Source: Promethearchaeota archaeon
Lineage (GTDB): Archaea; Asgardarchaeota; Lokiarchaeia; Sigyniarchaeales; SOKP01
Assembly (NCBI GenBank): GCA_019058015.1
Contig: JAHLWH010000134.1
Coordinates: 10,299-74,298 of the forward strand
Direction of reading: 5' to 3'
DNA length: 64,000 bases
Each line of letters begins with the position of its first letter. Positions within the stretch are counted from its first letter, which is position 1. Below are positions 1,900-50,241 of the stretch, piece after piece. A program made the translations under genes and the position numbers. The notes under the pieces are model-generated. The model ran no database searches, had not been told where the DNA came from, and was given only the letters and a program-made list of their open reading frames with translations.

Positions 1900-2847
1900 T
1901 CATATGTCTAAATTTAGAATATATTTTGCTAATGCTACTTTTTTTTTTAAATTTATCATAAAAATATCATATAAATAGGTTTTAATTCCAAGGTTTTCAA
2001 TTTTTGAAGTAAATTTTTCATCTCTTATGTCAATGATAAAATGTCCTAAAAAATCTGCATAATATTTTGCTATTCCAAAAGAAGATACTTCAAGATTTAA
2101 AGCTTTCATTAATTTATCTGTAGGACCTTTCACTGGAGCACCTTTTATTAAAGGACTAACTCCAATTACCTTATTTTTCACTCTCTTTAAGGTATCTCTT
2201 ATCCCCTTTACCTCTAAAATAGGTTTAATTGATACAATTGGATTTGATGGACAAATAATAATTTTCTTAGCCTTTTCAATTTTCTTTAACACACCTTTTA
2301 CTGGTTCGGCTTTTTTTATTCCATTAAAAATTACATTTTTAACTGGAATATTCGTTTTATATTTTATGAAATATTCTTCAAAATGAATATCTCCACGCGG
2401 TGTTATTATATGAGTTTCCACCCATGTATCAGTCATAGGTATAATCTCGCATTTAACTCCTAATCTATCGCATATCTTTTTTGTAGCTTCTGACTTAGAA
2501 AATCCTTTTGACATTAAATCTGTTCTAAAGATGTGTGTTGCAGCATCCTTATCTCCAATGTTAAACCAATTAAAACCATAATATTTTTTTAAAATATTTA
2601 AACAGGTAAAACTCTCATCTTTAAATCCCCACCCCTTATTCTCATCTACTACATTTGCTACTGTATAAGTTATAATGTCGATATCAGGACAGATTTTTAG
2701 CCCAAATAACTCAATATCATCTCCAGTATTGACGATAATTTGAAAATTTTCTTGAGGTAAAATTTCAATTAAACCTCGTATTAACCGTGCTGCACCTATT
2801 CCACCCGCTAAGACTAATATTTTTGAATTTTCCAGCATATTATCCAC
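1900..2847 (-). CDS. cofD: 2-phospho-L-lactate transferase (LPPG:FO transferase, CofD family)
   Basis: N-terminal ILVLAGGIGAARLIRGL loop. 315 aa with overall CofD/UPF0052-like pattern. Co-directional with cofE two genes away. Confidence 0.85.
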   Translation of the reverse strand: MDNMLENSKILVLAGGIGAARLIRGLIEILPQENFQIIVNTGDDIELFGLKICPDIDIITYTVANVVDENKGWGFKDESFTCLNILKKYYGFNWFNIGDKDAATHIFRTDLMSKGFSKSEATKKICDRLGVKCEIIPMTDTWVETHIITPRGDIHFEEYFIKYKTNIPVKNVIFNGIKKAEPVKGVLKKIEKAKKIIICPSNPIVSIKPILEVKGIRDTLKRVKNKVIGVSPLIKGAPVKGPTDKLMKALNLEVSSFGIAKYYADFLGHFIIDIRDEKFTSKIENLGIKTYLYDIFMINLKKKVALAKYILNLDI

Positions 2848-2861
2848 ATTAATTTTTTATT

Positions 2862-3479
2862 TTACATAAAATTTGAGCTAATAAATAGAATCTTTTTAAG
2901 TGGTTGGCGAATAGGAGGTTTAATTTCTTTTTTTTTTGGGTAGCCAACAGTAATAAATGCTATGGGATAATAAGTTTTAGGTAGATTTAATATAGATAAG
3001 ACTATTTCTCTTGTAAATAAAGGCGCTGAATACCAGCAAGAAGCTAATCCATACTTTTGAAATGAAATAAGTAAATATGTAATTGAACTAGCTACACTTA
3101 AATTTCCTAAGATAAATTCATTCTTATTACGTTCATTATCTGGATATATATACAATACAGATGAATCCATACATGAAAGGATCAAAAATGGAGAATTTAA
3201 GAACTGTTCTCTAGTTAATTTAATTTTTATATCAATTTCTTCTTCTGATTTACTATTTTTCTTAAAGTCTTTCCTCAATTTTTCATTCATTTTATCCACT
3301 AGAGTTAATCGTTGTTCCTTATTATCGATAATAATGTAACGCCATGGCTGACAGTTATGTGCTGAAGGGGCCCATTGAGAAATCTCTATACATTCCTCTA
3401 TTATTCTCTTTTCCACCTCTTTTTTTTCAAAAGAAAATTTATAACTCCTTCTATTTTTTAATGCATTTATAATTTCCAT
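2862..3479 (-). CDS. nitroreductase-superfamily flavoprotein (FbiB C-terminal-domain-like candidate)
   Basis: NRRSYKF and WAPSAHNCQPWRYIII motifs of the nitroreductase fold. Wedged between cofE and cofD with 5-nt and 14-nt gaps. Confidence 0.75.
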   Translation of the reverse strand: MEIINALKNRRSYKFSFEKKEVEKRIIEECIEISQWAPSAHNCQPWRYIIIDNKEQRLTLVDKMNEKLRKDFKKNSKSEEEIDIKIKLTREQFLNSPFLILSCMDSSVLYIYPDNERNKNEFILGNLSVASSITYLLISFQKYGLASCWYSAPLFTREIVLSILNLPKTYYPIAFITVGYPKKKEIKPPIRQPLKKILFISSNFM

Positions 3480-3484
3480 AAAAA

Positions 3485-4285
3485 TTAACTCCTAAAAATA
3501 TCAAATTTATCTTCTCTTAAAATAGATGTTATAGAAGCATGTTCTTCTATAATATAATCATAACCTCTAATAATCACTACTGGAATTCCTTCATTACTTT
3601 CACCCATTACTAACTGTGCAGCGGATACCAAATTATCTGCCTGTCCTATTATTGTTGTTTGTAATTTATACCCATATAAATCCATGCAACCTCGTTTATC
3701 TAAAATAGGTTTCATTCCAGCAATACCAATTGCAACTCCTACAGTCCCAACTCTAAAAGGTCTTCCAAAAGAATCTGAAATGATTACTGCTACTTCTCTA
3801 TTAGATAATTCTTTAAGTTCTTTTCTTATTCTCATAGCATCCTCATCCGGATTTTCTGGAAGTAAAGTAACATTGTCAATCCCCTCAACATTTGATTTAT
3901 CTATTCCAGCATTAGCACATATAAATCCTTGATGTTTTGTTTCAACTATTAACACATGCTCAACTTTAAGTATTTCTTTCGATTCTTCTAATATTGCCTG
4001 AATTAATTCAGGAGATTTTATTGAAATTCCAGCTCTTTCTACCTTAGGTTTCATCCGTTTATATATTTCAATAGCTTTTTTACTAGGTACAATCTCATTT
4101 AAGTTTCTAATACGCCCATTACTCTTCGAAATAATTGATTGAGATATAATAATAACATCCTTATCCTTTAAGGACATATAGTTTTTCTTTAGTGATTCTA
4201 TTATTATTGTCGAAATATTATCTCCTTCTTTTATAAAAGGAATATCTTGAACCCCAATTATCTCAATTTGATTTTTTGATATCAT
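3485..4285 (-). CDS. cofE: coenzyme F420-0:L-glutamate ligase (CofE family)
   Basis: ANAGIDKSNV motif, KEGDNISTIII..DVIIISQSIISKSNGR, and SDSFGRPFRVGTVGVAIG. All are typical of CofE. Confidence 0.85.
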   Translation of the reverse strand: MISKNQIEIIGVQDIPFIKEGDNISTIIIESLKKNYMSLKDKDVIIISQSIISKSNGRIRNLNEIVPSKKAIEIYKRMKPKVERAGISIKSPELIQAILEESKEILKVEHVLIVETKHQGFICANAGIDKSNVEGIDNVTLLPENPDEDAMRIRKELKELSNREVAVIISDSFGRPFRVGTVGVAIGIAGMKPILDKRGCMDLYGYKLQTTIIGQADNLVSAAQLVMGESNEGIPVVIIRGYDYIIEEHASITSILREDKFDIFRS

Positions 4286-4301: not shown

Positions 4302-5366
4302 TTATGAATTTTGATATTTTTTAATTTCTTTATCTGAACTTTTAGAAAATTTTTCAAATTTTACTGGAATTGCACAACATGCAGAATAAAATTTGAATGA
4401 AATTCCAGGATAACTTTCTTTTACCCAAATTAAAGTTTTTTTGGAAGGAATTTCAATTCTATTTACTCCTGCTTGAATTGCATATTTCTCAATTTTAAAT
4501 TTAAATGAACCTCTCGGGCGCATACAACCTAATGAAATTTCTGTATTAGGAAAAATTAATCTAGTTAAAGTTATAATCTTTGCAATATCGATTGGATTTG
4601 GTGTGACAAATCTTTCATTTATATCCTCTAAAGATCTGGGAGGAATTAATGCAATTAATACAATTACTGAAGGATTAATAATATTTTGTTTTATAAATTT
4701 AATAGATTCAATTTCTTTATGAAGTCTCCCATAAAATAGCCCAATACAAATATGAGGAACTATATTTAAATTATACTTTTTTAAAATTTGAACAGCCTCT
4801 TTATAATCTTCTAAATTCTTATTCAAATGATAAATATTTTGGATAATCTCCTCATCCATATTTATATCAAATGATATAATATCAACATTAGAATCTGTCA
4901 ATTTTTTTGCCGTTTCCTCATTTAACAATCCAGTATGTGTATTTATAATTAAATTAGTCTCATTTTTTACTTTTTTAATCACATCTAAAAAATCCTTTAA
5001 AGGGACCGCCCCTTCTTCATCACAACCCCCAGAAATTAAAGCCCCTACACCATTATTTTTTGAGTGATTAAGCAAGAATTTTTCTAATTTATCTGAATTT
5101 TGAATTTTTTTCATTCCTTCTAAATATTTTTTATTACAATGTTCACATTCTAAAGCACACTTATTTCCTGTTATACTTATAGCCGGAAATCTTTTACTCG
5201 GTGTATATATTTTAAGTTGATTTCCAAAATTTTGAATCGAAATTTCATGAGAAAGATCAAAAAAAGCTTCTAAATCGTTTTCCTTTAATTGTAAAAAATT
5301 ATAATAATCATCCCATGAGGCATTTCCCACCTTAATTTTATTAAATAATTGCTGGATTTTATTCAT
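4302..5366 (-). CDS. radical SAM protein (candidate LipS-type lipoyl synthase component)
   Basis: CALECEHC (CxxxCxxC) cluster motif and SGGCDEEG. Overlaps the stop of the lipoate-ligase gene by 8 nt. Confidence 0.6.
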   Translation of the reverse strand: MNKIQQLFNKIKVGNASWDDYYNFLQLKENDLEAFFDLSHEISIQNFGNQLKIYTPSKRFPAISITGNKCALECEHCNKKYLEGMKKIQNSDKLEKFLLNHSKNNGVGALISGGCDEEGAVPLKDFLDVIKKVKNETNLIINTHTGLLNEETAKKLTDSNVDIISFDINMDEEIIQNIYHLNKNLEDYKEAVQILKKYNLNIVPHICIGLFYGRLHKEIESIKFIKQNIINPSVIVLIALIPPRSLEDINERFVTPNPIDIAKIITLTRLIFPNTEISLGCMRPRGSFKFKIEKYAIQAGVNRIEIPSKKTLIWVKESYPGISFKFYSACCAIPVKFEKFSKSSDKEIKKYQNS

Positions 5367-6138
5367 ATTTGTATAACCATTTATCCGTACTATATTTCTC
5401 TTTTATTAATTTTTCTGCTAATTCCAATTCATATTTTGAAAATTTTCCCTTCTCCAATTTTATTCCTAAAGTTGTTTCAAAACCATTAATAAGATAAGAA
5501 ATAAATTCATTTTCATCAAAATTTTGAATTTGTTCTTCTATACCAATTACTTTAGCATATACTGAAGCCACCATCTTTTTAGTAGGAACATTTTTTGGAG
5601 CTTTTAATACAGAGTACATCAACTCAGGATTTATTTTTAATAATATCGTTCCATGTTGTAATAAATATCCACTTCTTCTAACTTGTGCATTTCCGGAGAT
5701 CTTTTTTCCATCTAAAAAGATCGCAGGGCAATGTATAACTCCTTTATCAGATCCTAATTGATAATTACTAAGAGCTTCAATTATCCCTTGAGTAATAATC
5801 TCATATTGTTCTATCATTCTTATAAATCCCTTTTCCTCTAAAAATTTTAATGGACATACAACTGAATAAGTTATTTCTCCTTTAAAATCATGAAAAACCG
5901 CACCCCCTCCAGTTATCCTTCTTACTATATTAAATTTTTTCTCTTTAGCAACAGTTATATTAACCTCATCTGAAACACTCTGATGATATCCAATCGTTAT
6001 TGTAGAAGGATCCCATTTAAATAAACGAATCGTGTTTGGAGTTTTTTTTTCAATACAAGATTGTAATATTGACTCATCTAAAGCCATATTCCAATAACCA
6101 TCTCTGATTTCTAATGGTAAAAATCTCCAAATATTCAT
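5359..6138 (-). CDS. lplA: lipoate/octanoate-protein ligase (BPL/LplA/LipB family)
   Basis: RRITGGGAVFHD and GKKISGNAQ (catalytic Lys) motifs. N-terminal WNMALDESIL pattern. Confidence 0.8.
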   Translation of the reverse strand: MNIWRFLPLEIRDGYWNMALDESILQSCIEKKTPNTIRLFKWDPSTITIGYHQSVSDEVNITVAKEKKFNIVRRITGGGAVFHDFKGEITYSVVCPLKFLEEKGFIRMIEQYEIITQGIIEALSNYQLGSDKGVIHCPAIFLDGKKISGNAQVRRSGYLLQHGTILLKINPELMYSVLKAPKNVPTKKMVASVYAKVIGIEEQIQNFDENEFISYLINGFETTLGIKLEKGKFSKYELELAEKLIKEKYSTDKWLYKYE

Positions 6139-6155
6139 AATATCACTCTTAATGA

Positions 6156-7172
6156 TTAATTTACAAATCTCTCTAGTAATTTATATATTTCTTTTTTCTC
6201 AAAGAAATTTATTTCCCGTGGATAATTATAAATTGGTCCTGAAGGCTTAGAAGTATAATAAGGACGATTGCAACCTGGACATCCGGTAGTCCTGAAAGCC
6301 TCACTCTCATCAACAAAATTTCTTAATTCTTTCTTATTTAAATTAAAATATATTATATCTCCTTTTTGATTAAATGTAAAATCATCTAATTTCTTGTAAT
6401 CATTTATGAGTAAATATCTACCTAATTGTATTTTTCTAAAGTGATTTATATCTGGCTGGATCATATTCTCAAATTTTGTTCCTTCAATAGGTGTAAATGC
6501 AAATAATCCGGGTAAAATAGACAACTCATGCAATTCTGCAATTAATTTTAATGTTTCTTTCTGAGTTTCACCAAAACCAATTATTATATGAGTGCTTACA
6601 AGTTCTTTTCCAAAAACATCCAAGGCATCTCTTAAACTATCAAAATGAGAACGCCAAAAATACGAACCGTTAACTCCTATTCCCTTAATTTTTTCGAAAA
6701 TTTCTTTTGTTACGCCATCTAATGCTATTCCCACTCTTTGTACTCCACATAACTTTAAATCCTTTAATTCATCTTTAGATATTGGAGGTATTGCCACAGA
6801 TATTGGTATATTGGTAACTTTTCTAATCCCAGATATAATTTCAATCAAGTCTTGTAAATTCTCGGCATAATTAAGCGTTTGAACACATATTCTCTGAAAT
6901 TTTTTTAAAGAAGCAGCATATTTTAATTTGGTTAAAAAATCCTTAAAGGGAAAAATTGGCCAATTGATACGTGATAATTTATCATTTGAACTAGTTGCAT
7001 TTCTTGCTTGAGGACAAAAACCACAATTTGCAATGCATTTTCCTTTCTTGTAAGTCATACTATAAACCGTAGTTGGAGGGGTCTCGAGCTTTATGGAAGT
7101 AAATCCTAAAATCGTGGCGCTACCAATAGAAACTCTAATTTTTTCAATCGTCATAGAATATTTTAAAATCAA
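6156..7172 (-). CDS. radical SAM protein (candidate LipS-type lipoyl synthase component)
   Basis: CIANCGFC (CxxxCxxC) motif. First gene of a co-directional rSAM-ligase-rSAM array. Confidence 0.6.
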   Translation of the reverse strand: MILKYSMTIEKIRVSIGSATILGFTSIKLETPPTTVYSMTYKKGKCIANCGFCPQARNATSSNDKLSRINWPIFPFKDFLTKLKYAASLKKFQRICVQTLNYAENLQDLIEIISGIRKVTNIPISVAIPPISKDELKDLKLCGVQRVGIALDGVTKEIFEKIKGIGVNGSYFWRSHFDSLRDALDVFGKELVSTHIIIGFGETQKETLKLIAELHELSILPGLFAFTPIEGTKFENMIQPDINHFRKIQLGRYLLINDYKKLDDFTFNQKGDIIYFNLNKKELRNFVDESEAFRTTGCPGCNRPYYTSKPSGPIYNYPREINFFEKKEIYKLLERFVN

Positions 7173-7206: not shown

Positions 7207-8319
7207 ATGAAAAAAATTATGGAAAAACCTCTGAATATCATCTTTATCGAAAATTTTCATATCTATAAAAAATACACCAAAGTTAAAACTGTAGGTGGCA
7301 TAGAAACAAATACTTGGGATGTTATCAATTCATTAAGAAATAAGGGCCATAACGTATGGGTTCCGAGTGAGAATAAATCTCCACCAAAATGGGTTCAAAA
7401 AAATGAAGTAGATGTAATTTCTAGTTCTACATTTGATCCCTTAACTGCATGGCAATTGTATAAGATGAAAAAAAAACACAATGCTACAGTTATCCAACAT
7501 GCACATACAACAGTTGAAGATTTAGAAGGCGGATTTTTACCTAATATGAAAATTTGGGCAAAATTAACTCGAATATACCTTAAATATTTATATAACGTGT
7601 CACATTTAATAATAACTCCATCAGAATTTTCTAAAAATTCAATAAAGAAGCTAAATTTAAAGAAAAAACCACCAATATATGCAGTTAGTAATGGAGTTAA
7701 ATTTGAAAAATTTAAAGAAAAAAAGGAATATCGAGAAAATTTTAGAAAATTTTTAAATGAAAGATATAATGTTCCAATTGATGCCAAAATCATTCTAAAT
7801 GTAGGTTTTACTTGGAGAAGAAAAGGAGTTGATGAATTTTATAAATGCGCAAAAGATTTATTAGATTATTGGTTTGTTTGGGTAGGACCAATAAAAGAAA
7901 ATTTCTATGTAAAACAAGCTTCTTCGCTGGAAAATTGTATTTTTACAGGATATTATGATAATATTTGTGAGCCTTATTATGGGGCTGATGTTCTTTTATT
8001 CCCCTCATATGTAGAAAATCAAGGGATTCCTCTCATGGAAGCTGCAGTTTGTAAATTACCAATTGTAGCCCGTGATATAGAACCATTTAATTGGTTAGTC
8101 CATAACGAGTCTTGTTATAAAGCAAATCATCATAGTGAATTTATAACAGGAATTGAAATGATTCTACATGATTCAGCTTTTAGAAATAAAATAATTAAAA
8201 ATGCTTATATATCAACTGATAAACTGCATAACTTTAAAAAAATTGGCGATAAAATTGAATACTTATACAAAAGAGCAATAAAAATAAAAACTCTCCATCT
8301 TAAAAGAATCAGTAATTAA
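7207..8319 (+). CDS. glycosyltransferase, GT-B fold (GT4-like)
   Basis: C-terminal LLFPSYVENQGIPLMEAAVCKLPIVARDI (E-x7-E-type sugar-donor region). Confidence 0.75.
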   Translation: MKKIMEKPLNIIFIENFHIYKKYTKVKTVGGIETNTWDVINSLRNKGHNVWVPSENKSPPKWVQKNEVDVISSSTFDPLTAWQLYKMKKKHNATVIQHAHTTVEDLEGGFLPNMKIWAKLTRIYLKYLYNVSHLIITPSEFSKNSIKKLNLKKKPPIYAVSNGVKFEKFKEKKEYRENFRKFLNERYNVPIDAKIILNVGFTWRRKGVDEFYKCAKDLLDYWFVWVGPIKENFYVKQASSLENCIFTGYYDNICEPYYGADVLLFPSYVENQGIPLMEAAVCKLPIVARDIEPFNWLVHNESCYKANHHSEFITGIEMILHDSAFRNKIIKNAYISTDKLHNFKKIGDKIEYLYKRAIKIKTLHLKRISN

Positions 8320-8324
8320 TTTTT

Positions 8325-8789
8325 TTATAAAACCAGTTCCATAAAAATTGCACCTTCCACGGGATTGTATCTATACGGTTTAATATTTTTAAAACCTAAT
8401 GAACGATAAAGTGCTATTGCCTCTATCATTGAAGGAATTGTATCAAGTCGCATATAATTATAACTCATATTTTGAGCTTTTTCAATAATTTTTATCATTA
8501 ATCTTCTGCCTATTCCTCTTTTTCGAAATTCTGGTCGTACATATAATCTTTTCATTTCACACATACCTTTAGTAATCTTTCTTAATGCCGCACATCCAAC
8601 TATCTGCTTTTTTTCTTTAGCTAGAAGCAAGCAACCATTCGGTAAAGTATATTCTCCTGGAAGTGCTGCTAATTCTCTCTCAAAATCTTGAAATTCTAAA
8701 TTAAAATCTAACCATGATGCATATTCTTTAAAAAGCTCTCTTATAATATTTAGATCTTCTTCAGTTTTTACAGAAGAAATTTTAACCAT
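8325..8789 (-). CDS. GNAT-family N-acetyltransferase
   Basis: RPEFRKRGIGRRLM acetyl-CoA binding motif. 154 aa. Confidence 0.85.
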   Translation of the reverse strand: MVKISSVKTEEDLNIIRELFKEYASWLDFNLEFQDFERELAALPGEYTLPNGCLLLAKEKKQIVGCAALRKITKGMCEMKRLYVRPEFRKRGIGRRLMIKIIEKAQNMSYNYMRLDTIPSMIEAIALYRSLGFKNIKPYRYNPVEGAIFMELVL

Positions 8790-9261
8790 GATTAATTATT
8801 AGTATAATTTATTTTAAGAAGTTAAAAATTAGCTTTTATAAAAATCTAATTATGAAAGAAAGAAGAACTAATAAAAATAAAAAACGAAAATTGAGCATTT
8901 CAAAAAATAATTCCATATATATTCTAAATCTATGCCCTTTTCTGTAGATATTATGATAATCTTTAAAAGTAGTGATTATAATATCTATCATAATGTCTCT
9001 CTTAATGAATAAAGTACAAAATGCATTGTTATTTGTATTACTCTTAGTAGTAGTACTCTCATTAGTACTCTAATTCGAGAGAGAACGAACCTGAGCCTTT
9101 TTTTAAATCTAATTTCCTTGGATTTGTTCTTTCTTAATCTCCAGCAAATATTTTTAGAATTAAAGCTCAAAGGTTCGAAAAAGCATTGAAAAAAAGAATT
9201 CATAAAATTGAAAAAATATAGAAAATTTAATTAGAAGTAATAGAATGGAATAAAAGGAATT

Positions 9262-12042
9262 ATGCGTGATTATAATCCCAATATAATAGAAAAGAAATGG
9301 CAAAAGAAATGGGAAGAAAAAAAAATTTTTGAAGTAAAAAAGGATTCAAAAAAGAAAAAATATTATGTACTCGAAATGTATCCTTATCCCTCTGGAGAAC
9401 TTCACATAGGTCATCTACGTAATTATTCTATCGGTGATGCTTTTGCTAGATACAAACGAATGTGTGGATTCCATATGCTTTATCCTATGGGATATGATTC
9501 TTTTGGACTACCCGCAGAAAACGCCGCAATTGACGAGGGGGTTAATCCAGAGGAATGGACAAATTTAAACATCGATACTATGAGAAATCAACAAAAACGA
9601 ATAGGATTATCTTATGATTGGACTCGCGATATTCACAGTCACGACCCGAATTATTTCAAATGGGACCAGTGGTTTTTTCTGAAAATGTTAGAAAAAGATC
9701 TAGCTTATAGGGAAAATAGTTATATTAATTGGTGCCCTCAATGTGCAACGGTGTTGGCTAACGAACAAGTTCAAGGTGGTCAATGTTGGCGCTGTAATAC
9801 AGAAGTAGAACAAAGATTCTTGACCCAATGGTTTTTAAAAATAAGATCTTATGCCGAAGAATTGTTAAATGGCTTAAATGATGTTGATTGGCCCGAAAAA
9901 GTTAAAGTCATGCAAAGAAATTGGATCGGGAGGTCGGAGGGATCGATAATTAAATTCCCAATTGTGGGAGAAGAAAAGACCATTGACATATTTACAACTA
10001 GAGCTGATACACTTTTTGGAGTAACTTTTATGGTTTTTGCTCCAGAACATCCTTGGATTCACGAATGGGTTAAAGGAACTGAATATGAAAAGGATTTTGA
10101 AATTTTTTATACCGATGTTAAAAAACAGAATAAATTTGAAAGAACAGATGTTGAGGTTGAAAAAAAAGGGATGTTTATCGGTAAATACGCGTACAATCCA
10201 ATGACAAAAGAAAAAATTCCTATTTATATTGGAAATTTTGTCATTTATGAATACGGTGCAGGTGCTGTTATGGCGGTTCCTGCTCACGACCAGCGTGATT
10301 TTGAATTTGCAAAAAAGTATAATATCACGATTAAAATTGTCATTCAACCACCTGATTATGAATTAAATGCGGATAAAATGATAAGAGCTTATGTGGCAGA
10401 TGGTATCCTAGTAAATTCAGAAGAATTTGACGGGATGGATAATCGAACTGCAAATAATGCGATAGCAAAAAAGTTAGAGAAAATAGGGATGGGTCAAGCA
10501 ACTATTAATTATAAGTTAAGGGATTGGTTAATTTCCCGTCAAAGATATTGGGGTTGCCCAATACCAATAATATATTGCGATGATTGTGGAATTGCGCCTA
10601 TTTCTTATGAGGATTTGCCATTAGAATTACCAAAAGATGTTAAATTCACTGGAAAAGGAAACCCTTTAGAAACCTCTGAAAATTTCATTAATTGCCAATG
10701 TCCAAAATGTGGTAAACCAGGGAGGCGTGAGACTGATACAATGGACACTTTCATTGACAGTGCATGGTATTTCTTCAGATTCTGTGATCCTCATGCAAAA
10801 AACTTACCATACAGAAAGGAAATTGTTAATTATTGGGGAAATGTTGATCAATATATTGGCGGAATTGAACATGCAATAATGCATCTTCTTTATGCAAGAT
10901 TTTTTACAAAAGTAGCGCGTGATCTTGGGCTACATTCACATGATGAACCCTTTCAACGATTATTAACACAGGGTATGATCAACAAAGCACATCCATATTG
11001 CCCAAAATGTAATTCCTTTGCGATGAAAGCAGAAATGCATGATGAGAGATGTAAACGATGTGGAACGGAATATATTCTAAAAAGCGCTAAGATGAGCAAA
11101 TCTCTAGGAAATACCGTAGATCCAATTGGAATTATGAATGAATATGGGGCAGATGCAACTAGATTTTTCATATTATTCGGAGCAAGTCCAGAGAAAGGAT
11201 TGGAATGGTCTGATCAAGGAGTTGGATTTGCATATAAATTTGTCTCTGGTTTATGGGTACTTTTTACAGAGTCTGCCGAAAAAATAAGAAACAAAAGGAA
11301 TATAAATGATACTTTTATAGAATACAAATTAAATAAACTCATAAAAATTGCTACAGAATACATGAATAATCTTGCATTACGTGATGCGATAAATGAAATT
11401 GTTCAATTTATTCCATATTTTAAAGGATATAAGAAAAATGGTATTATTGAAGATCTATATAAAGAATGTCAAGAAAAATTGCTACTGATCTTACATCCAT
11501 TTATACCACACATAACAGAAGAATTATGGGAAATGCTTGGTCATAAAGATTTCTTAAGTATATCTACTTGGCCATCCTATAACAAAAATCTACTAACAGA
11601 TGAAAACGATTTTAAATGGAATTTACTGAACAACACAATAGATGATATAAAAAATATAATACAAATTTTAAAGGGTCATAAAATTTCTTTGATTAAAATT
11701 GTAATTGCAGCCGAATGGAAATACAAATTGTTTTCAATATTAATACCATTGATTGAAAAATCTAAAGATCAAGGAGAAATTATGAAATTAGTTATGCAGG
11801 ACGCTGAATTGAAAAAATTTGGGAAACAAATAAATCAAATCACCAATAATATTTTGCAAAATCTTGGGACATATTCAAAAATAGTCTTAACATCAAAAAA
11901 TGAAATGGACTTTTTTAATGAAATAAAACCAACTTTTCAGGATAAGTTTGGGGTTAATATTGAAATATTTTTAGAAGATCAAATTGATCATAAAAAAGCT
12001 AAACAAGCATTACCTGGGAAACCCGTTCTAATTTTAGAGTAA
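9262..12042 (+). CDS. leuS: leucyl-tRNA synthetase, bacterial-type architecture
   Basis: HIGH (HIGHLRNY) and KMSKS (KMSKSLGN) signatures. Also FGLPAEN, CPQC..CWRC zinc motif, RDWLISRQRYWGCPIP and YIGGIEHAIMHLLYARFF. Confidence 0.95.
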   Translation: MRDYNPNIIEKKWQKKWEEKKIFEVKKDSKKKKYYVLEMYPYPSGELHIGHLRNYSIGDAFARYKRMCGFHMLYPMGYDSFGLPAENAAIDEGVNPEEWTNLNIDTMRNQQKRIGLSYDWTRDIHSHDPNYFKWDQWFFLKMLEKDLAYRENSYINWCPQCATVLANEQVQGGQCWRCNTEVEQRFLTQWFLKIRSYAEELLNGLNDVDWPEKVKVMQRNWIGRSEGSIIKFPIVGEEKTIDIFTTRADTLFGVTFMVFAPEHPWIHEWVKGTEYEKDFEIFYTDVKKQNKFERTDVEVEKKGMFIGKYAYNPMTKEKIPIYIGNFVIYEYGAGAVMAVPAHDQRDFEFAKKYNITIKIVIQPPDYELNADKMIRAYVADGILVNSEEFDGMDNRTANNAIAKKLEKIGMGQATINYKLRDWLISRQRYWGCPIPIIYCDDCGIAPISYEDLPLELPKDVKFTGKGNPLETSENFINCQCPKCGKPGRRETDTMDTFIDSAWYFFRFCDPHAKNLPYRKEIVNYWGNVDQYIGGIEHAIMHLLYARFFTKVARDLGLHSHDEPFQRLLTQGMINKAHPYCPKCNSFAMKAEMHDERCKRCGTEYILKSAKMSKSLGNTVDPIGIMNEYGADATRFFILFGASPEKGLEWSDQGVGFAYKFVSGLWVLFTESAEKIRNKRNINDTFIEYKLNKLIKIATEYMNNLALRDAINEIVQFIPYFKGYKKNGIIEDLYKECQEKLLLILHPFIPHITEELWEMLGHKDFLSISTWPSYNKNLLTDENDFKWNLLNNTIDDIKNIIQILKGHKISLIKIVIAAEWKYKLFSILIPLIEKSKDQGEIMKLVMQDAELKKFGKQINQITNNILQNLGTYSKIVLTSKNEMDFFNEIKPTFQDKFGVNIEIFLEDQIDHKKAKQALPGKPVLILE

Positions 12043-16969: not shown

Positions 16970-17509
16970 ATGAGCTTTAAAAAATTACCAATTACAAGTC
17001 ATATTGGATTGATGTATCCAAGACAAACAATTTTACTAACTACTTACCCTGTAAATATTATCCCTCTTGCTTGGACTCTTATTTTAAGTAGAAATCCTCC
17101 TATTGTAGGAATTTCCGTGTCACCCTCAAGATTCTCTCATAATTTAATTAAAGATCAAGGAGAATTCACAATAAATGTTCCTACAAGGGAAATATTAAAA
17201 AAAGTAATGTATTGTGGTCAAACATCAGGTAAAAAAGTAAATAAGTTTAAAGAAACTGGCTTAACACCATTAGATGGAATAAACGTGAAGTGTCCTCGAA
17301 TAAAAGAATGTATTAGCCACATAGAATGCAGACTGATCGATAGTAAGGTCTATGGGGATCACACTTTATTCATTGGTAAAGTTGTAACATGTCTAGGAAA
17401 TGAGGATTTTTTAAAAAATAATAGAATAGATATTAAAAAAGTAGAAATACCTTATCATTTGACTGGTAGGAATTTTACTTTTAATCAGAAAAAAATTTAT
17501 TATGTTTAA
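16970..17509 (+). CDS. flavin reductase-like (flavoredoxin/split-barrel FMN-binding) protein
   Basis: LLTTYPVNIIPLAWTL..PPIVGISVSPSRFSHNLIKDQGEFTINVP pattern of the flavin reductase domain. Confidence 0.65.
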   Translation: MSFKKLPITSHIGLMYPRQTILLTTYPVNIIPLAWTLILSRNPPIVGISVSPSRFSHNLIKDQGEFTINVPTREILKKVMYCGQTSGKKVNKFKETGLTPLDGINVKCPRIKECISHIECRLIDSKVYGDHTLFIGKVVTCLGNEDFLKNNRIDIKKVEIPYHLTGRNFTFNQKKIYYV

Positions 17510-19699: not shown

Positions 19700-20470
19700 T
19701 TATTTACTAACTTCATTTGCGGCTTTTAAAATTTCATAAAACGAATCAATATTGAGTGATGCGCCGCCAACTAATCCACCATCGATATTAGGCTGATTAA
19801 ATAGATTTCTCGCATTATTTGGTTTTATAGAGCCGCCATATTGGATCCTAACTTTTTCTGCAGTATCTGAATCATAAGTTTTATTTATATGTCCCCGAAT
19901 AAATTTATGAACTTCTTCTGCTTGTTCAGCTGTTGCTGTCTTTCCGGTTCCAATTGCCCAAACAGGTTCATACGCAATGATCATTTTTATAATTTCTCCC
20001 TTTGATAAATCCTTAAATGTATTTTTCAATTGATAATCGATTATCTCTTCCGTCTTTCCTTGTTCCCTTTCTTCAAGATGTTCCCCAATACATACAATTG
20101 GATTCAATCCAATAAAAAGCGCCTTTTTTAACTTTTTATTTATCAATTCATATGTTTCTCCAAAAATATTCCTTCTTTCACTATGTCCCAATATAACATA
20201 ATTACAACCGACATCTTTAAGAAATATTGGTGAGATATCTCCCGTAAATGCACCCTTATCTTCAAAATACATATTTTGCCCAGATAAATTAATATTTGTG
20301 CCTTTAATTATTTTTGAGACTTCATACAAAACAGTAAAAGGCGGCGCAATTACTATATCAACATTATTTAAATCCTTAACCATGGGAATTAATTTCTCAA
20401 CAAATTCCTGGGCTTCTTGTGGACTTCCCAAATTCATTTTCCAATTCCCTCCAATGATTTGCTTTCGCAT
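19700..20470 (-). CDS. tpiA: triosephosphate isomerase, bacterial/eukaryotic-type
   Basis: GGNWKMN, ILGHSERR, AYEPVWAIGTGKTA, IQYGGS and GGLVGGASL motifs. 256 aa. Confidence 0.9.
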   Translation of the reverse strand: MRKQIIGGNWKMNLGSPQEAQEFVEKLIPMVKDLNNVDIVIAPPFTVLYEVSKIIKGTNINLSGQNMYFEDKGAFTGDISPIFLKDVGCNYVILGHSERRNIFGETYELINKKLKKALFIGLNPIVCIGEHLEEREQGKTEEIIDYQLKNTFKDLSKGEIIKMIIAYEPVWAIGTGKTATAEQAEEVHKFIRGHINKTYDSDTAEKVRIQYGGSIKPNNARNLFNQPNIDGGLVGGASLNIDSFYEILKAANEVSK

Positions 20471-26177: not shown

Positions 26178-27059
26178 TTAGACGGCATTATATCTTTCTA
26201 ACAGTGTTTGTGGACGTGCTCTATGAAGTTTTAAGTTAAGATCGTCATATTTATAGCCCATTGCAAGTGCTAATAATTCTGTTAGGTAGAGAATAGGTAT
26301 GTTATATTCCTTTTCGAATAACTTTTTCAAATTTCTCTGAGAGTTGTCCATTTGTTGATAACAGGCAGGACATATTACTACGAAGCACTTAGCACCAGCC
26401 TGAATAGCGCTATCAAATTTTTGCTTTAATATTTGCATTGCTGGCTCTTCTTCAGTATTTCCAACACCCGCTCCGCAACATAAAACTTCTTCATCGTAAT
26501 CAACTGCAGTTGCACCAGTTGCCTCAACTAATTCACGTAAACACTTGGGTTCCATAGGATCGTCCCATTGCATAATATGAGATGGTCTAGCGTAATGGCA
26601 TCCCGTATGGCAAGCGACTTTAAGGCCAGTGAAAGGTGTCGTTATAGCTTCTTTAATCTTTTCTATGCCTACATCTTCGATTAAAATTTGCACAAAGTGT
26701 TTTACACTAATTGTCCCTTTAAATTCTCGACCAATCTTTGCCAGAACCGCATTTATTGAAGCCCTTTCTTCTTCACTCTGTTTTAATTCGACATTAACTG
26801 CTTTCAAAGTCTGAGTGCATCCATTACATAATGAGGCAATAGATCTATTATCATTTTCTGCAATGGTGAGATTTCTCGCGCTCAAAACCATCCAGCTTTT
26901 ATGGTGAACTGCATTAAATCCTACTGGATCTGGACAACAGTTAAAAGGTGCATCGAATGTTTTTACGCCCAATTTATCAAAGACTTTCCTTGCTGAATCT
27001 TCTAAGTAAGGTAAGCGATTTGGGATAACACATCCTGGAAATAAATCGTATTCTTCCAT
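26178..27059 (-). CDS. heterodisulfide reductase subunit B-like protein (two CCG domains)
   Basis: PGCVIP..FNCCPDP and CHTGCH..LCCGAGVG cysteine-rich CCG repeats. TAATG overlap with the upstream HdrC-like gene. Confidence 0.75.
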   Translation of the reverse strand: MEEYDLFPGCVIPNRLPYLEDSARKVFDKLGVKTFDAPFNCCPDPVGFNAVHHKSWMVLSARNLTIAENDNRSIASLCNGCTQTLKAVNVELKQSEEERASINAVLAKIGREFKGTISVKHFVQILIEDVGIEKIKEAITTPFTGLKVACHTGCHYARPSHIMQWDDPMEPKCLRELVEATGATAVDYDEEVLCCGAGVGNTEEEPAMQILKQKFDSAIQAGAKCFVVICPACYQQMDNSQRNLKKLFEKEYNIPILYLTELLALAMGYKYDDLNLKLHRARPQTLLERYNAV

Positions 27060-27589
27060 TATTTTTCTCCCTCCTTCTTTTCTTCTTCTATTGGTCCTAT
27101 TATTTTTTCAAGTCCTGTTTCTTTTAATAATGCTCTAACTTCTTTTTTATCAACTTTTGGTGCTTTAGGTAATCCCATCTGATCACGTCTTCTCTCTATT
27201 GCTGGTGCTAGTGGAATAGCCTTACCATGTTCTAAAATAAATTTTGCTTGAGTTGTATAATAATCAGGAGCTTCTCCTTTTTTTACGCTCATATTTTTTA
27301 ATAAGGTAAAGATCTCGGTCAATTCAACATTCTGAGGGCACATTTCATCACATGTATCACAAACAGTGCAGCCCCAGATATTAAAATTATTTTCGGTACC
27401 TAGTAATAAATTATCTTTAAGTCCTAAAAGTGAATTTAAAATTAATTTTCTCGGATTATATCTACCATTGGTTACTTGAGCCACTGGGCAAGCTCCAGAG
27501 CATGTTCCACATTGATAGCAATAGGCGAGTGTATTTCCCAAATCTTTTTGGATAATACTATTACGGAATTCGAAATCGATAACTGCCAA
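27059..27589 (-). CDS. heterodisulfide reductase subunit C-like 4Fe-4S dicluster protein
   Basis: CYQCGTCSGACP and CTVCDTCDEMCP motifs. Confidence 0.75.
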   Translation of the reverse strand: MAVIDFEFRNSIIQKDLGNTLAYCYQCGTCSGACPVAQVTNGRYNPRKLILNSLLGLKDNLLLGTENNFNIWGCTVCDTCDEMCPQNVELTEIFTLLKNMSVKKGEAPDYYTTQAKFILEHGKAIPLAPAIERRRDQMGLPKAPKVDKKEVRALLKETGLEKIIGPIEEEKKEGEK

Positions 27590-32599: not shown

Positions 32600-32709
32600 T
32601 TCAATAGGTGCAGCATTAATTTTAATTTATTCTCAATAATCGGAATTGATAGATTTTATTTTAATTTAATTTAATTAAATTTTAATGCATTCTCAATATT
32701 ATATTATTC

Positions 32710-33762
32710 ATGAAAAGCGACGTAAAAGGCTCAAAAATAATACGCTTAGCTCACGGTTCAGGCGGAACCTTGCAATCGGAATTGATAGAATTCATAGTAA
32801 AGGGGATTGCTCAAAAAAATGTTAATAATGGTATTGGTGTTGAAGAATTAGATGATGGAGCTACAATTCCCTTAAAAAATTATGATAAAGAGATTGTAAT
32901 AACTGCTGATGGACACACTGTTTTTCCTCTATTTTTTCCGGGAGGGGATCTTGGAAAATTAAGCATATGTGGAACGGTGAATGATATTTTAATGATGGGA
33001 GCTGAACCTTTAGCTTTAAGTTCAATTTATATTATTGAAGAAGGATTTAACTTTGATATATTAGGAAAAATTGTTAAGTCTTTTAATCAAACTGCTAAAG
33101 AGGTTGGTATTGCAATTATTGCTGGTGATACAAAAGTTATGCCTAAAACCACGTTGAATGAAATTATTATCGCAACCTCTGGAATAGGGATTAAAGATAC
33201 GGATATAAAAATATGTGATAATAATCTAAAGGCTGGTGATAAAATTATAGTAACAGGTTCAATCGGTGATCATGGTGCTGCTTTAATGGCAAAAAGAGAA
33301 GGATTAAATTTATCGACAAATTTAGAATCTGATCTTGCACATTTAAAAGAAATATATCTTGCGATTAAAGAAAATATTAAACAAAATCATATTCATGCAA
33401 TGAAAGATCCTACTCGTGGAGGAATTGCCAGTGCCTTAAATGAATGGAGTTCAAAATCAGATGTAAGTATTTGGCTCGAGGAAGATGCTATTCCAATAAA
33501 GGATGAAGTAAACTCTATTTGTGATATTTTGGGATTAGAGCCATTTAATATTGCATGTGAAGGTAGAGCTCTCATCGCTGTTGATTCAAATTATGTAGAT
33601 GAAGTCTTTAAAAAAATCAAAACTACAAATCTTGGAGAAGAAGCCCGGATAATTGGAGAAGTAAAATCTGAGGAACATAAAAAAGTATTCTTAAAAACAA
33701 TAATTGGAGGAACTAGATTCGTAGATATGCCTTTAGGGGAGTCTATTCCTCGTATATGTTAA
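32710..33762 (+). CDS. hypE: hydrogenase maturation protein HypE
   Basis: LAHGSGG N-terminal motif, PurM-like repeats, and the characteristic C-terminal PRIC. Confidence 0.9.
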   Translation: MKSDVKGSKIIRLAHGSGGTLQSELIEFIVKGIAQKNVNNGIGVEELDDGATIPLKNYDKEIVITADGHTVFPLFFPGGDLGKLSICGTVNDILMMGAEPLALSSIYIIEEGFNFDILGKIVKSFNQTAKEVGIAIIAGDTKVMPKTTLNEIIIATSGIGIKDTDIKICDNNLKAGDKIIVTGSIGDHGAALMAKREGLNLSTNLESDLAHLKEIYLAIKENIKQNHIHAMKDPTRGGIASALNEWSSKSDVSIWLEEDAIPIKDEVNSICDILGLEPFNIACEGRALIAVDSNYVDEVFKKIKTTNLGEEARIIGEVKSEEHKKVFLKTIIGGTRFVDMPLGESIPRIC

Positions 33763-33940
33763 AAATATTATCATTTGAAAATTAACAAAATAAAAAAATT
33801 ATTAATAAAAAATGCAAAATCTAGGAACAAGACAATTAATTCTCGGAATTTAAATAACAGATTAGAGAAAAACTTTTAAGTTAGTTTCCCTCCTAAAGAA
33901 GTTATTTAAATTTCAATAAGAACAAAATTGTTGTATTAAA

Positions 33941-35569: not shown

Positions 35570-35737
35570 TTCTCTTCTTTTTGAGAATATTTAATCATCC
35601 TTAAATTTAAAGTAATAATAATATTAAAATGTTAATTTCAGGAAATATTAAAAAAAAAGTGGTTCTGCAGCATTCCAGTATTAAAAATATTAAAAAATAA
35701 AGGATTTACAGAAAAAATCACTAAGATAATAAACAGT

Positions 35738-36754: not shown

Positions 36755-36758
36755 AATA

Positions 36759-42670: not shown

Positions 42671-43063
42671 TTAATCTAATAAGTTAGCTATTTTTTTAGA
42701 AGCAGCAATAATATTTAGGAAAACCATGCCCAAAGAAGGATTTTGAGATGTCAAAACACACAGGATTGCATTGTTTCCTGCCCTTGATAAAATAATTAAG
42801 CCCTCATCTCCTTCAATCATAATTCTTTTAAAATTTCCACGGGCTAACTCAGATACAGCTCTCTCGGATACACTTATTATAGCAGCAGACATAGCACTTA
42901 TAATACCGTTATTAGTTTCTCCTCCATATACAGTTCTTAATCTTGGGAGGGCGCTAGCTATTGGTAATCCTTGAATACTAACAATAGAACTCCCTTGAAT
43001 TTCAGAATTCATTGCTTCCATTTGTCGAAGTATATTTGCAAGTTCCGAGAGGTTTTCTGACAA
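42671..43063 (-). CDS. roadblock/LC7 (MglB-like) domain protein
   Basis: Helix (LSELANILRQMEAMNSEI) - G - strand pair (SSIVSIQGLPIAS) - helix (ISAMSAAIISVSERA) - three strands (FKRIMIEGDEGLIILSRAGNNAILCVLT) - helix. 130 aa. Confidence 0.75.
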   Translation of the reverse strand: MSENLSELANILRQMEAMNSEIQGSSIVSIQGLPIASALPRLRTVYGGETNNGIISAMSAAIISVSERAVSELARGNFKRIMIEGDEGLIILSRAGNNAILCVLTSQNPSLGMVFLNIIAASKKIANLLD

Positions 43064-46529: not shown

Positions 46530-46552
46530 TATTTTAATACCCTCCTTAAAAA

Positions 46553-47566: not shown

Positions 47567-47598
47567 TATGCAGTGAAGAATCCATATTAGTTAATAAA

Positions 47599-47916: not shown

Positions 47917-47976
47917 TTAAAAAATATTAAATTAAAAACAATTAGGTTAAAAAAGTTAAATAAAAAATAGTAATTC

Positions 47977-50203: not shown

Positions 50204-50241
50204 AATTATATTCCAAATTGCAAAAAATTTATATGATTTAA

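What the first reader, a model, noticed from the sequence alone, without database searches (positions are those of the whole stretch)
1900..4285. cofD - nitroreductase - cofE: an FbiB-like function encoded as separate genes
A stand-alone nitroreductase-fold gene sits between cofE and cofD, with gaps of 5 and 14 nt.

In mycobacteria the CofE-like domain is fused to a nitroreductase-like domain (FbiB). That domain reduces dehydro-F420-0 formed from phosphoenolpyruvate.

A split version in an archaeon would imply the PEP/dehydro-F420-0 route rather than the 2-phospho-L-lactate route usually assumed for archaea.
Basis: inference. Interest (0 to 1): 0.4.

Follow-up and report, generated by a model that had tools for sequence, protein, structure and literature searches.

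The report
Split FbiB-like F420 enzyme in Lokiarchaeon
In this Asgard (Loki-type) archaeal genome, an enzyme that relatives encode as one two-part protein for finishing the redox cofactor F420 has been cut into two adjacent genes; this is a tidy new example of something already described, not a new kind of system.

Summary
Three minus-strand genes sit head to tail: cofE (4285..3485), a 205-aa nitroreductase-fold gene (3479..2862) and cofD (2847..1900), with gaps of 5 and 14 nt.

The nitroreductase is not a generic one. Its best curated family, its best solved-structure sequence match and its 11 best fold matches are all the FbiB C-terminal domain, the dehydro-F420-0 reductase of Mycobacterium tuberculosis.

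Among 53 syntenic Asgard loci, 51 carry cofE and this domain as one ~470-aa FbiB-like ORF. Only the window's own clade is split: five independent assemblies, 58-96% identical. The break lies in the interdomain linker, and a Shine-Dalgarno-like AGGAG precedes the new ATG. A six-protein tree places the split clade inside the fused ones, so this is probably a gene fission.

In Bathyarchaeia, Hel- and Odinarchaeota the stand-alone homologue sits in NTR-cofD-cofC clusters.

The inferred role is FMNH2-dependent reduction of dehydro-F420-0, which implies a phosphoenolpyruvate route. No assay exists for any archaeon.

The idea is already published: the Lokiarchaeal FbiB fusion (Bashiri 2019), and stand-alone "FbiE" in Thermomicrobium with archaeal homologues noted (Braga 2020, cited in Grinter and Greening 2021). 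I class it as a new member of a known kind, of low to moderate interest.

The parts
3485..4285 (-). cofE, F420-0:gamma-glutamyl ligase (266 aa). It corresponds to the N-terminal half of the FbiB-like fusion found in relatives and ends ...DKFDIFRS-TAA.
   Evidence: PF01996 at 249.9 bits. TIGR01916 at 269 bits (cut-off 181) and PRK13293 at 284 bits (cut-off 274). Colinear with residues ~5-266 of the fused ~472-aa ORFs in L003-L053.
3480..3493 (-). Fission junction. A Shine-Dalgarno-like AGGAG (3493..3489) lies inside the last cofE codons, followed by the cofE stop TAA (3487..3485) and a 5-nt TTTTT spacer (3484..3480) before the NTR ATG (3479..3477).
   Evidence: Read directly from the sequence. 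L001 and L002 have the identical junction. L081 has AGGAG + TGA + 5 nt + ATG. L082 has an overlapping TAATG. Fused relatives have a 6-10-residue linker at this point. SD-like 5-mers precede 8 of 56 ORF starts against a 4.2% background, binomial p = 0.0024.
2862..3479 (-). Stand-alone nitroreductase-fold gene (205 aa). It is the orthologue of the C-terminal domain of Asgard FbiB-like proteins (FbiB C-terminal / 'FbiE' type) and the inferred FMNH2-dependent dehydro-F420-0 reductase.
   Evidence: PF00881 at 87 bits. Best NCBIfam family TIGR03553 at 110.8 bits, below its cut-off of 249.55. PDB best hit 4xom at E 6e-18. AlphaFold pLDDT 91.9, and the top Foldseek hits are M. tuberculosis FbiB C-terminal chains at TM 0.87-0.91 and rmsd 2.0 A. 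Fused to cofE in 51 of 53 syntenic loci.
1900..2847 (-). cofD (fbiA-type) transferase (315 aa with the GTG start at 2847; an alternative ATG lies at 2838). It makes F420-0 or dehydro-F420-0 from Fo and the CofC product.
   Evidence: PF01933 at 161.8 bits. TIGR01819 at 316 bits, cut-off 257. Lies immediately downstream of the NTR in 52 of 53 Asgard loci and next to it in 21 of 27 more distant loci.
4302..7172 (-). Upstream same-strand genes lipS2 (7172..6156), lplA large subunit (6138..5359) and lipS1 (5366..4302). They are tightly spaced with cofE (gaps 17, -8 and 16 nt) and form a conserved six-gene block. No functional link to F420 is known.
   Evidence: NCBIfam LipS2 at 323 bits (cut-off 270) and LipS1 at 264 bits (cut-off 230); LplA_large at 195 bits, below its cut-off of 480. 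The order LipS2-LplA-LipS1-CofE-NTR-CofD is kept in L001-L053 wherever the contig reaches, and in L081.

Best explanation
The window comes from a Lokiarchaeia-type Asgard archaeon (phylum Promethearchaeota). Its DNA is about 94% identical to the MAG CSMAG_2237.

The three genes cofE, NTR and cofD are the F420-tailoring part of a six-gene same-strand block. The 205-aa nitroreductase-fold protein is the orthologue of the C-terminal domain of the FbiB-like CofE-NTR fusion that almost all related Asgard genomes encode.

In this lineage the fusion was cut within the interdomain linker. An indel that is not a multiple of three put the two halves in different reading frames. CofE now ends at a stop codon, and 5 nt later a new ATG, preceded by an SD-like AGGAG, restarts translation. 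The two halves are therefore probably made as separate, translationally coupled polypeptides.

Inferred mechanism:
1. CofC, encoded elsewhere, activates phosphoenolpyruvate with GTP.
2. CofD transfers the enolpyruvyl phosphate to Fo, giving dehydro-F420-0.
3. The NTR protein, as an FMN-bound dimer using FMNH2, reduces the enol double bond to give F420-0.
4. CofE adds the gamma-glutamates.

Shown here: gene order, family membership of CofE and CofD, closest-family placement of the NTR, fusion in relatives, the anatomy of the split and its inheritance.

Inferred: the reductase activity, the use of phosphoenolpyruvate, the direction of the event (fission), co-transcription, and separate translation.
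For: Family and fold:
- The best NCBIfam match is the FbiB C-terminal domain, 58 bits ahead of the next family.
- The best PDB sequence hit is the M. tuberculosis FbiB C-terminal domain.
- The model has pLDDT 91.9, and its top 11 Foldseek hits are that same domain at TM 0.80-0.92.

Fusion in relatives:
- 51 of 53 syntenic Asgard loci have one continuous ~470-aa CofE-NTR ORF.
- Three tested fusions align end to end with the full-length FbiB model PRK13294 at 272-301 bits, against a cut-off of 304.

Linkage:
- The NTR lies next to cofD in 73 of the 80 loci from genome contigs and in both further contigs, L081 and L082.
- cofC follows cofD in 13 loci, including Odin-, Hel- and Bathyarchaeia.

The split is real and inherited:
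- Five independent assemblies (window, L001, L002, L081, L082), 58-96% identical, all have it.
- Their junctions differ: TAA + 5 nt, TGA + 5 nt, and a TAATG overlap.
- The split clade has bootstrap 100. It is basal to all fused loci in only 3 of 200 replicates.
- dN/dS for the NTR is 0.24-0.33 against L001 and L002.
- R10, R11, S12, A37-A40, N42, Q44, W46, E121 and G179 are invariant across the family alignment.

Substrate-pocket residues:
- Residues named in PMC6450877 map as P289 to A40 and M372 to L124. The bacterial stand-alone homologues show the same pattern (A, and M or L).
- The M. tuberculosis residues H290, R296 and E369, checked in the same alignment, are conserved.

The biochemistry of the homologues comes from the literature: FbiB C-terminal domain (PMC6450877) and T. 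roseum stand-alone FbiE (Braga 2020, cited in PMC8498797).
Against: - The NTR scores 110.8 bits on TIGR03553, far below the curated cut-off of 249.55.
- It is only 23-24% identical to the M. tuberculosis domain.
- The equivalent of the carboxylate-binding R337 is ambiguous: R90 in the pairwise HMM alignment but L88 in the multiple alignment.
- No cofC, cofG/H or F420-dependent enzyme lies in the 64-kb window, so pathway completeness in this genome was not seen.
- No archaeal member of this group has been assayed.
- Cognate CofC/CofD pairs from other archaea (an uncultured archaeon, BMS3Bbin15, and a Hydrothermarchaeota archaeon) were highly specific for 2-phospho-L-lactate, and the CofC enzymes of the methanogens M. 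jannaschii and M. mazei also preferred it (PMC8764529).
- The polarity of the event rests on a neighbour-joining tree rooted with a single outgroup, and its internal nodes have weak support.
Confidence: 0.7

Rival explanations
1. Salvage or proof-reading role. The main route uses 2-phospho-L-lactate, as in methanogens. The NTR only rescues dehydro-F420 species made when a promiscuous CofC/CofD pair occasionally takes phosphoenolpyruvate.
For: Archaeal CofC/CofD enzymes accept phosphoenolpyruvate at a low rate while preferring 2-phospho-L-lactate, and M. jannaschii CofD shows relaxed specificity (PMC8764529). The homology and linkage data here fit this reading as well as the main-route reading.
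Against: A physical fusion to CofE in 51 of 53 loci, and tight NTR-cofD-cofC clusters in other archaea, look like a core pathway step rather than a repair function. No source of 2-phospho-L-lactate (CofB) has ever been identified (PMC6450877).
Confidence: 0.12
2. Non-redox accessory role. The NTR protein mainly binds F420-0 or dehydro-F420-0 and presents it to CofE to start or extend the glutamate tail, without being needed as a reductase.
For: In M. tuberculosis FbiB the C-terminal domain binds F420 and was reported to be essential for extending the tail from F420-0 (summarised in PMC6450877). Fusion to CofE in relatives fits a partner role.
Against: The nitroreductase FMN-site signature (R10-R11-S12, G179, R191) is invariant or nearly so. 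The same M. tuberculosis domain was later shown to be the FMNH2-dependent reductase (PMC6450877). In Bathy-, Hel- and Odinarchaeota the stand-alone gene is linked to cofD-cofC, not to cofE.
Confidence: 0.1
3. A generic FMN nitroreductase, or a BluB- or iodotyrosine-deiodinase-like enzyme unrelated to F420, that merely happens to lie between cofE and cofD.
For: It is below the curated TIGR03553 cut-off. It gives weak hits to BluB (52.7 bits) and to iodotyrosine deiodinase (E 2e-10).
Against: FbiB C-terminal domain is the best hit by a wide margin in sequence and in fold. Orthologues are fused to CofE in 51 loci, and the NTR lies next to cofD in 75 of 82 loci.
Confidence: 0.04
4. A broken gene or an assembly or sequencing frameshift in an FbiB-like fusion; that is, a pseudogene or an artefact rather than two working genes.
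For: Relatives carry a single ORF, and the two halves are in different frames, which is what a frameshift error would produce.
Against: The same split is seen in five independent assemblies, 58-96% identical, with three different junction sequences. Both halves are full length. The NTR has its own ATG and an SD-like AGGAG. dN/dS is well below 1, and catalytic motifs are invariant.
Confidence: 0.02

Closest known systems
FbiB of Mycobacterium tuberculosis (Rv3262): an N-terminal CofE-like ligase fused to a C-terminal nitroreductase-fold dehydro-F420-0 reductase (PDB 4XOM/4XOO/4XOQ)
   Same: It has the same two modules in the same order. The window NTR's best sequence and fold matches are to this C-terminal domain. 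H290, R296 and E369 are conserved, and the hydrophobic pocket positions are kept in character: P289 to A, M372 to L.
   Different: The modules are two separate polypeptides here. Identity is only 23-24%. The score is below the curated domain cut-off. The window's CofE matches the archaeal CofE model (284 bits) better than the FbiB model (168 bits). The R337 equivalent is ambiguous.
Lokiarchaeal / Asgard FbiB-like CofE-NTR fusion (noted by Bashiri et al. 2019, PMC6450877)
   Same: These are direct orthologues: 50-57% identity in the NTR part, the same six-gene synteny, and the same cofD downstream.
   Different: The relatives have one ORF of about 470 aa with a 6-10-residue linker. The window clade has a stop, 5 nt and a new start at that linker.
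Stand-alone dehydro-F420 reductase of Thermomicrobium roseum ('NTR', later named FbiE; Braga et al. 2020 AEM, cited in PMC8498797 and PMC8764529)
   Same: It has the same architecture, a free-standing FbiB C-terminal homologue encoded with cofE and cofD. Chloroflexota homologues in L068, L074 and L077 show cofE, NTR and cofD as separate adjacent genes and score similarly on TIGR03553, at 116-132 bits for the two scanned, L068 and L077.
   Different: The T. roseum sequence itself could not be obtained, so identity to it was not measured. The window NTR is 33-36% identical to the Chloroflexota homologues held. The window gene appears to derive from a fusion by fission, which has not been described for Thermomicrobia.
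Stand-alone NTR in NTR-cofD-cofC clusters of Bathyarchaeia, Hel-, Odin- and Sigynarchaeota
   Same: These belong to the same protein family (34-41% identity), and cofD lies immediately downstream.
   Different: They have no adjacent cofE; cofC follows cofD; and the lipoylation genes are absent, except in L072, where they lie on the opposite strand.

Membership tests
FbiB C-terminal domain / FbiE-type dehydro-F420-0 reductase (nitroreductase superfamily) | Nitroreductase fold with the FMN-phosphate-binding signature | tested here: met
   PF00881 at 87 bits, cut-off 23.5. AlphaFold pLDDT 91.9. All Foldseek hits are nitroreductase-fold proteins. R10-R11-S12 and G179 are invariant, and R191 nearly so. 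Reading these as FMN-phosphate ligands is by analogy with NfsB-type enzymes, from my own knowledge.
FbiB C-terminal domain / FbiE-type dehydro-F420-0 reductase (nitroreductase superfamily) | Closer to the FbiB C-terminal domain than to any other nitroreductase subfamily | tested here: met
   TIGR03553 at 110.8 bits against BluB at 52.7. PDB 4xom at E 6e-18 against the next hit at 2e-10. Foldseek ranks 1-11 are all M. tuberculosis FbiB C-terminal chains.
FbiB C-terminal domain / FbiE-type dehydro-F420-0 reductase (nitroreductase superfamily) | Score above the curated NCBIfam cut-off for TIGR03553 (249.55 bits) | tested here: not met
   The score is 110.8 bits. All non-actinobacterial relatives tested also fall short, at 101-143 bits. 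This includes the fused Asgard proteins and Chloroflexota stand-alone homologues, so the cut-off appears tuned to actinobacterial FbiB.
FbiB C-terminal domain / FbiE-type dehydro-F420-0 reductase (nitroreductase superfamily) | Fused to, or encoded next to, F420 biosynthesis genes (cofE, cofD, cofC) | tested here: met
   In the window it lies between cofE and cofD. It is fused to cofE in 51 of 53 syntenic loci. It lies next to cofD in 75 of 82 loci. cofC follows cofD in 13 loci.
FbiB C-terminal domain / FbiE-type dehydro-F420-0 reductase (nitroreductase superfamily) | Substrate-pocket residues from the M. tuberculosis docking model (P289, M372, R337) | tested here: inconclusive
   P289 maps to A40 and M372 to L124; both are conservative, and the bacterial stand-alone homologues show the same pattern. 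R337 maps to R90 in the phmmer alignment but to L88 in the MAFFT alignment.
FbiB C-terminal domain / FbiE-type dehydro-F420-0 reductase (nitroreductase superfamily) | FMNH2-dependent reduction of dehydro-F420-0 to F420-0 | not testable with these tools
   This needs an enzyme assay. No archaeal member has been assayed, to my knowledge and in the papers read (PMC6450877, PMC8498797, PMC8764529).
CofE (F420-0:gamma-glutamyl ligase) | Score above the curated equivalog cut-offs | tested here: met
   TIGR01916 at 269.2 bits (cut-off 180.65) and PRK13293 at 284.2 bits (cut-off 274).
CofD / FbiA (2-phospho-L-lactate or enolpyruvyl transferase) | Score above the curated equivalog cut-off | tested here: met
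   TIGR01819 at 316.2 bits, cut-off 257.45. The YvcK-type model TIGR01826 scores only 39 bits.
FbiB (bifunctional fusion protein) | CofE-like and NTR domains on a single polypeptide | tested here: not met
   A TAA stop and a frame change separate the two ORFs in the window, L001, L002, L081 and L082. The feature is met by 51 relatives.
BluB (5,6-dimethylbenzimidazole synthase) | Score above the TIGR02476 cut-off (150 bits) | tested here: not met
   The score is 52.7 bits. No cobalamin biosynthesis genes lie nearby.

The most novel reading that the evidence does not exclude
Asgard archaea, together with Bathyarchaeia, Hel- and Odinarchaeota that carry NTR-cofD-cofC clusters, may make F420 from phosphoenolpyruvate through dehydro-F420-0. 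On that reading this nitroreductase family is the 'CofX' reductase that was sought for archaea, and the 2-phospho-L-lactate route is a speciality of methanogens rather than 'the archaeal route'. The window lineage would then be a natural experiment showing that the two halves of FbiB work as separate polypeptides.

A more remote possibility (about 5%) is that the conserved co-location with lipS2-lplA-lipS1 reflects a real functional link between lipoylation and deazaflavin synthesis.
Probability: 0.5. Interest if true: 0.4.

Novelty: new member of a known kind. Interest (0 to 1): 0.25.

Why it matters
How archaea build the lactyl linker of F420 is still debated. The proposed lactate kinase (CofB) has never been found. 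Phosphoenolpyruvate was shown to be the precursor in mycobacteria and Thermomicrobia, and 2-phospho-L-lactate was later re-established for methanogens.

A conserved FbiB C-terminal-type reductase, fused to or encoded beside the F420 genes in Asgard and other non-methanogenic archaea, points to the phosphoenolpyruvate route there. It also names a concrete protein to assay.

The split form adds a small evolutionary point. The same lineage group holds both fused and fissioned versions, which helps when reasoning about whether the two activities need to be physically coupled, and when engineering F420 production.

None of this is conceptually new. The fusion in Lokiarchaeum and the stand-alone archaeal homologues have already been noted in print.

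Tried and rejected
- Braga et al. 2020 (PMC7267189) and Bashiri et al. 2016 (PMC4807274) are not held. The T. roseum sequence and the full list of F420- and FMN-binding residues were therefore unavailable. Only the three docking residues in PMC6450877 could be mapped.
- I searched all 56 window ORFs of at least 100 aa that are not shadow ORFs overlapping a longer ORF for cofC, cofG/H or F420-dependent enzymes, using Pfam and a CofC HMM built from related loci. Nothing was found. The rest of the genome could not be reached.
- I followed a lead that an Asgard CofC/CofD pair had been shown to be specific for 2-phospho-L-lactate ('Ca. H. archaeon' in PMC8764529). It is a Hydrothermarchaeota archaeon, not an Asgard one, so it is not direct counter-evidence.
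- An NTR-domain-only tree of 195 sequences left all deep nodes unresolved. It cannot say whether the Asgard and actinobacterial fusions arose independently. An earlier attempt with Biopython's neighbour-joining timed out.
- Protein lengths in databases suggested many 'stand-alone' ~200-aa Asgard proteins. The two that could be traced to loci held here (P0017 in L024, P0018 in L051) are calls from internal starts inside continuous fused ORFs. Architecture was therefore judged from DNA only.
- The sigma-70 promoter and terminator scan was not used, because it does not apply to archaea.
- The BluB, generic nitroreductase and artefact readings were considered and rejected (see the rival explanations).
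Full report
**Observation.** One search lists three consecutive minus-strand ORFs at exactly the stated coordinates: 4285..3485 (266 aa), 3479..2862 (205 aa) and 2847..1900 (315 aa). The gaps are 5 nt (3484..3480) and 14 nt (2861..2848). The 14-nt figure assumes the longest-ORF GTG start of the third gene. An in-frame ATG nine bases further on (2838) would make that gap 23 nt.

**Identity of the flanking genes.**
- The 266-aa protein passes the curated CofE equivalog cut-offs: TIGR01916 at 269 bits (cut-off 181) and PRK13293 at 284 bits (cut-off 274).
- The 315-aa protein passes the CofD cut-off: TIGR01819 at 316 bits (cut-off 257).
- Three more same-strand genes lie immediately upstream: LipS2, the large subunit of lipoate-protein ligase, and LipS1. 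Their spacings are 17, -8 and 16 nt, so the block has six genes.

**What the nitroreductase is.**
- It passes Pfam Nitroreductase (87 bits).
- Among NCBIfam models its best match by far is TIGR03553, the FbiB C-terminal domain (110.8 bits, E 7e-32). The next nitroreductase family, BluB, scores 52.7 bits. The score is well below that model's curated cut-off of 249.55.
- Against PDB sequences the best hit is the M. tuberculosis FbiB C-terminal domain (4xom/4xoo/4xoq, E 6e-18). Next is an iodotyrosine deiodinase at 2e-10.
- An AlphaFold model built on a 21-sequence alignment has mean pLDDT 91.9. Its 11 best Foldseek matches in the PDB are all chains of that same domain (for example TM 0.87-0.91, rmsd 2.0 A). 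Generic nitroreductases follow at TM about 0.8 or below.
- PMC6450877 names three residues from a docking model: P289, M372 and R337. I checked the offset between the PDB chain and FbiB numbering on those three residues. P289 maps to A40 and M372 to L124.
- Non-actinobacterial relatives carry A, and L or M, at those two positions, including the bacterial stand-alone homologues.
- The M. tuberculosis residues H290, R296 and E369, checked in the same alignment, are conserved.
- R337 maps to R90 in the pairwise HMM alignment but to L88 in the multiple alignment. That residue is unresolved.

**Relatives.**
- A protein search finds close homologues only in Asgard archaea and Bathyarchaeia.
- A scan of one genome per species returned 80 loci. 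I mapped the six window proteins onto them and checked reading frames on the DNA.
- Loci L001-L053, all from Asgard MAGs, keep the order LipS2-LplA-LipS1-CofE-NTR-CofD. Their record titles name Promethearchaeota, Hod-, Hermod-, Odin- and Thorarchaeota, or simply 'uncultured archaeon'.
- In 51 of these 53 loci, CofE and the nitroreductase are one uninterrupted ORF of about 470-490 codons where the contig holds it whole.
- Three such ORFs were scanned. They align end to end with the full-length FbiB model PRK13294 at 272-301 bits (cut-off 304). Their N-terminal halves pass the archaeal CofE model.
- Only L001 and L002 (95-96% identical to the window protein) are split like the window.
- Two metagenome contigs with more distant members (L081 at 58% and L082 at 64%) are also split.
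- Of the remaining 27 loci, 21 have cofD next to a stand-alone nitroreductase. These include Odin-, Hel- and Sigynarchaeota, Bathyarchaeia, Thermoproteales, and the bacterial groups Anaerolineae and Gammaproteobacteria.
- A CofC profile built from these loci finds cofC directly after cofD in 13 of them.
- The reductase candidate is thus repeatedly encoded with the two enzymes that would make its substrate.

**Anatomy and direction of the split.**
- Fused relatives read ...DLFR, then a 6-10-residue linker, then LxxLKxRRSYK....
- The window reads ...DIFRS-TAA, then TTTTT, then ATG-EIINALKNRRSYK. The two halves are in different frames, and AGGAG lies 9 nt upstream of the ATG.
- L081 has AGGAG, TGA, 5 nt and ATG. 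L082 has an overlapping TAATG.
- SD-like pentamers precede 8 of 56 ORF starts in the window against a 4.2% background (binomial p = 0.0024). The motif is therefore plausibly functional.
- In a neighbour-joining tree of the six concatenated proteins, the split clade has bootstrap 100. It is sister to all fused loci in only 3 of 200 replicates. That favours a fission of an ancestral fusion.
- The rooting uses one outgroup and inner nodes are weak, so the polarity is an inference.
- dN/dS against L001 and L002 is 0.24-0.33 for the nitroreductase, from few substitutions. Family-wide invariant residues are intact. An artefact or a pseudogene is therefore very unlikely.

**Mechanism.** By homology with M. 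tuberculosis FbiB (PMC6450877) and the stand-alone enzyme of Thermomicrobium roseum (Braga 2020, as cited in PMC8498797 and PMC8764529), the most likely role is FMNH2-dependent reduction of dehydro-F420-0. That intermediate is made by CofC and CofD from phosphoenolpyruvate, GTP and Fo. The product is F420-0, which CofE then glutamylates. The reductase activity, the use of phosphoenolpyruvate and the co-transcription of the genes are all inferred. None was tested here, and no archaeal member has been assayed in the papers I could read.

**Limits.**
- The 64-kb window has no cofC, Fo synthase or recognisable F420-dependent enzyme. The rest of the genome was out of reach.
- Sequence cannot at present tell a phosphoenolpyruvate-using CofC/CofD pair from one that uses 2-phospho-L-lactate. 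PMC8764529 shows the choice depends on the cognate pair. That work also re-established 2-phospho-L-lactate for methanogens.
- Two rival readings therefore stay open: a salvage role, and a substrate-presenting role.

**Comparison with what is known.**
- Bashiri et al. 2019 already noted that Lokiarchaeum encodes an FbiB-like fusion.
- The 2021 review by Grinter and Greening (PMC8498797, section 27) names the stand-alone form FbiE. It states that independent homologues occur in predicted archaeal F420 producers, and it draws the same conclusion about a phosphoenolpyruvate route.
- What this window adds: a Lokiarchaeial sub-lineage in which the fusion has been split; the size of the fused majority (51 of 53); and the conserved placement behind the lipoylation genes. 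I did not find these three points in the papers read.
- I classify the finding as a new member of a known kind, with low to moderate interest.

Noticed in passing
window 4302-7172 (-); L001-L053, L081: The lipoyl-cofactor genes lipS2, lplA (large subunit) and lipS1 sit directly upstream of cofE, on the same strand, with gaps of 17 nt or less. This six-gene order is kept across the 53 syntenic Asgard loci wherever the contig reaches, and in L081. In Sigynarchaeum (L072) the lipoylation genes are next to cofD but on the opposite strand. No functional link between lipoylation and F420 is known to me.
   Followed up: partly
L024 5167-6600; L051 5197-6609 (proteins P0017, P0018): Public records list ~200-aa 'nitroreductase family proteins' for Asgard MAGs. 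The two traced here start at internal TTG or ATG codons inside continuous ~475-codon CofE-NTR ORFs. Database protein lengths therefore overstate how many Asgard genomes have a stand-alone form.
   Followed up: yes
window 16970-17509 (+): A flavin-reductase-like protein (PF01613, 103 bits) lies about 13 kb from the cluster. It could in principle supply the FMNH2 that an FbiB C-terminal-type reductase needs, but there is no linkage evidence.
   Followed up: no
window 7257-8896: A ~1.6-kb segment carries a group-1 glycosyltransferase (7207-8319, +) and a GNAT acetyltransferase (8325-8789, -). It is absent from the 94%-identical relative L001, although a glycosyltransferase occupies the same place in the more distant L081. 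This is an indel between close relatives.
   Followed up: partly
window 42671-43063 (-), 48344-50203 (+), 44339-53677: There are eukaryote-like signature proteins typical of Asgard archaea: a Roadblock/LC7 protein and a Ribophorin I homologue. The latter lies within a glycosylation gene neighbourhood (several GT4/GT1 glycosyltransferases, DUF354, an NAD-dependent epimerase and a Glycos_transf_4 family protein).
   Followed up: no
window 30203-37577: The hydrogenase maturation genes hypF, hypE-like (AIRS) and hypD are interrupted by a B12-binding radical SAM gene (33941-35569) and followed by fdhD. An HdrB/C-like pair (CCG domain plus 4Fe-4S) lies at 26178-27589.
   Followed up: no
window 9262-12042 (+) and 19700-20470 (-): The leucyl-tRNA synthetase matches the Pfam LeuRS editing-domain model PF13603 strongly (234 bits). 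The 256-aa triosephosphate isomerase matches Pfam TIM at 326 bits. From memory, both look more like the bacterial than the classical archaeal types. I did not check this.
   Followed up: no
L065 4523-10047: A gammaproteobacterial MAG carries a compact F420 cluster: fno-like, cofE, stand-alone NTR, a 283-aa ORF with a lipoprotein-like N-terminus, cofD, cofC and a luciferase-like oxidoreductase. This is another bacterial example of the unfused arrangement.
   Followed up: partly
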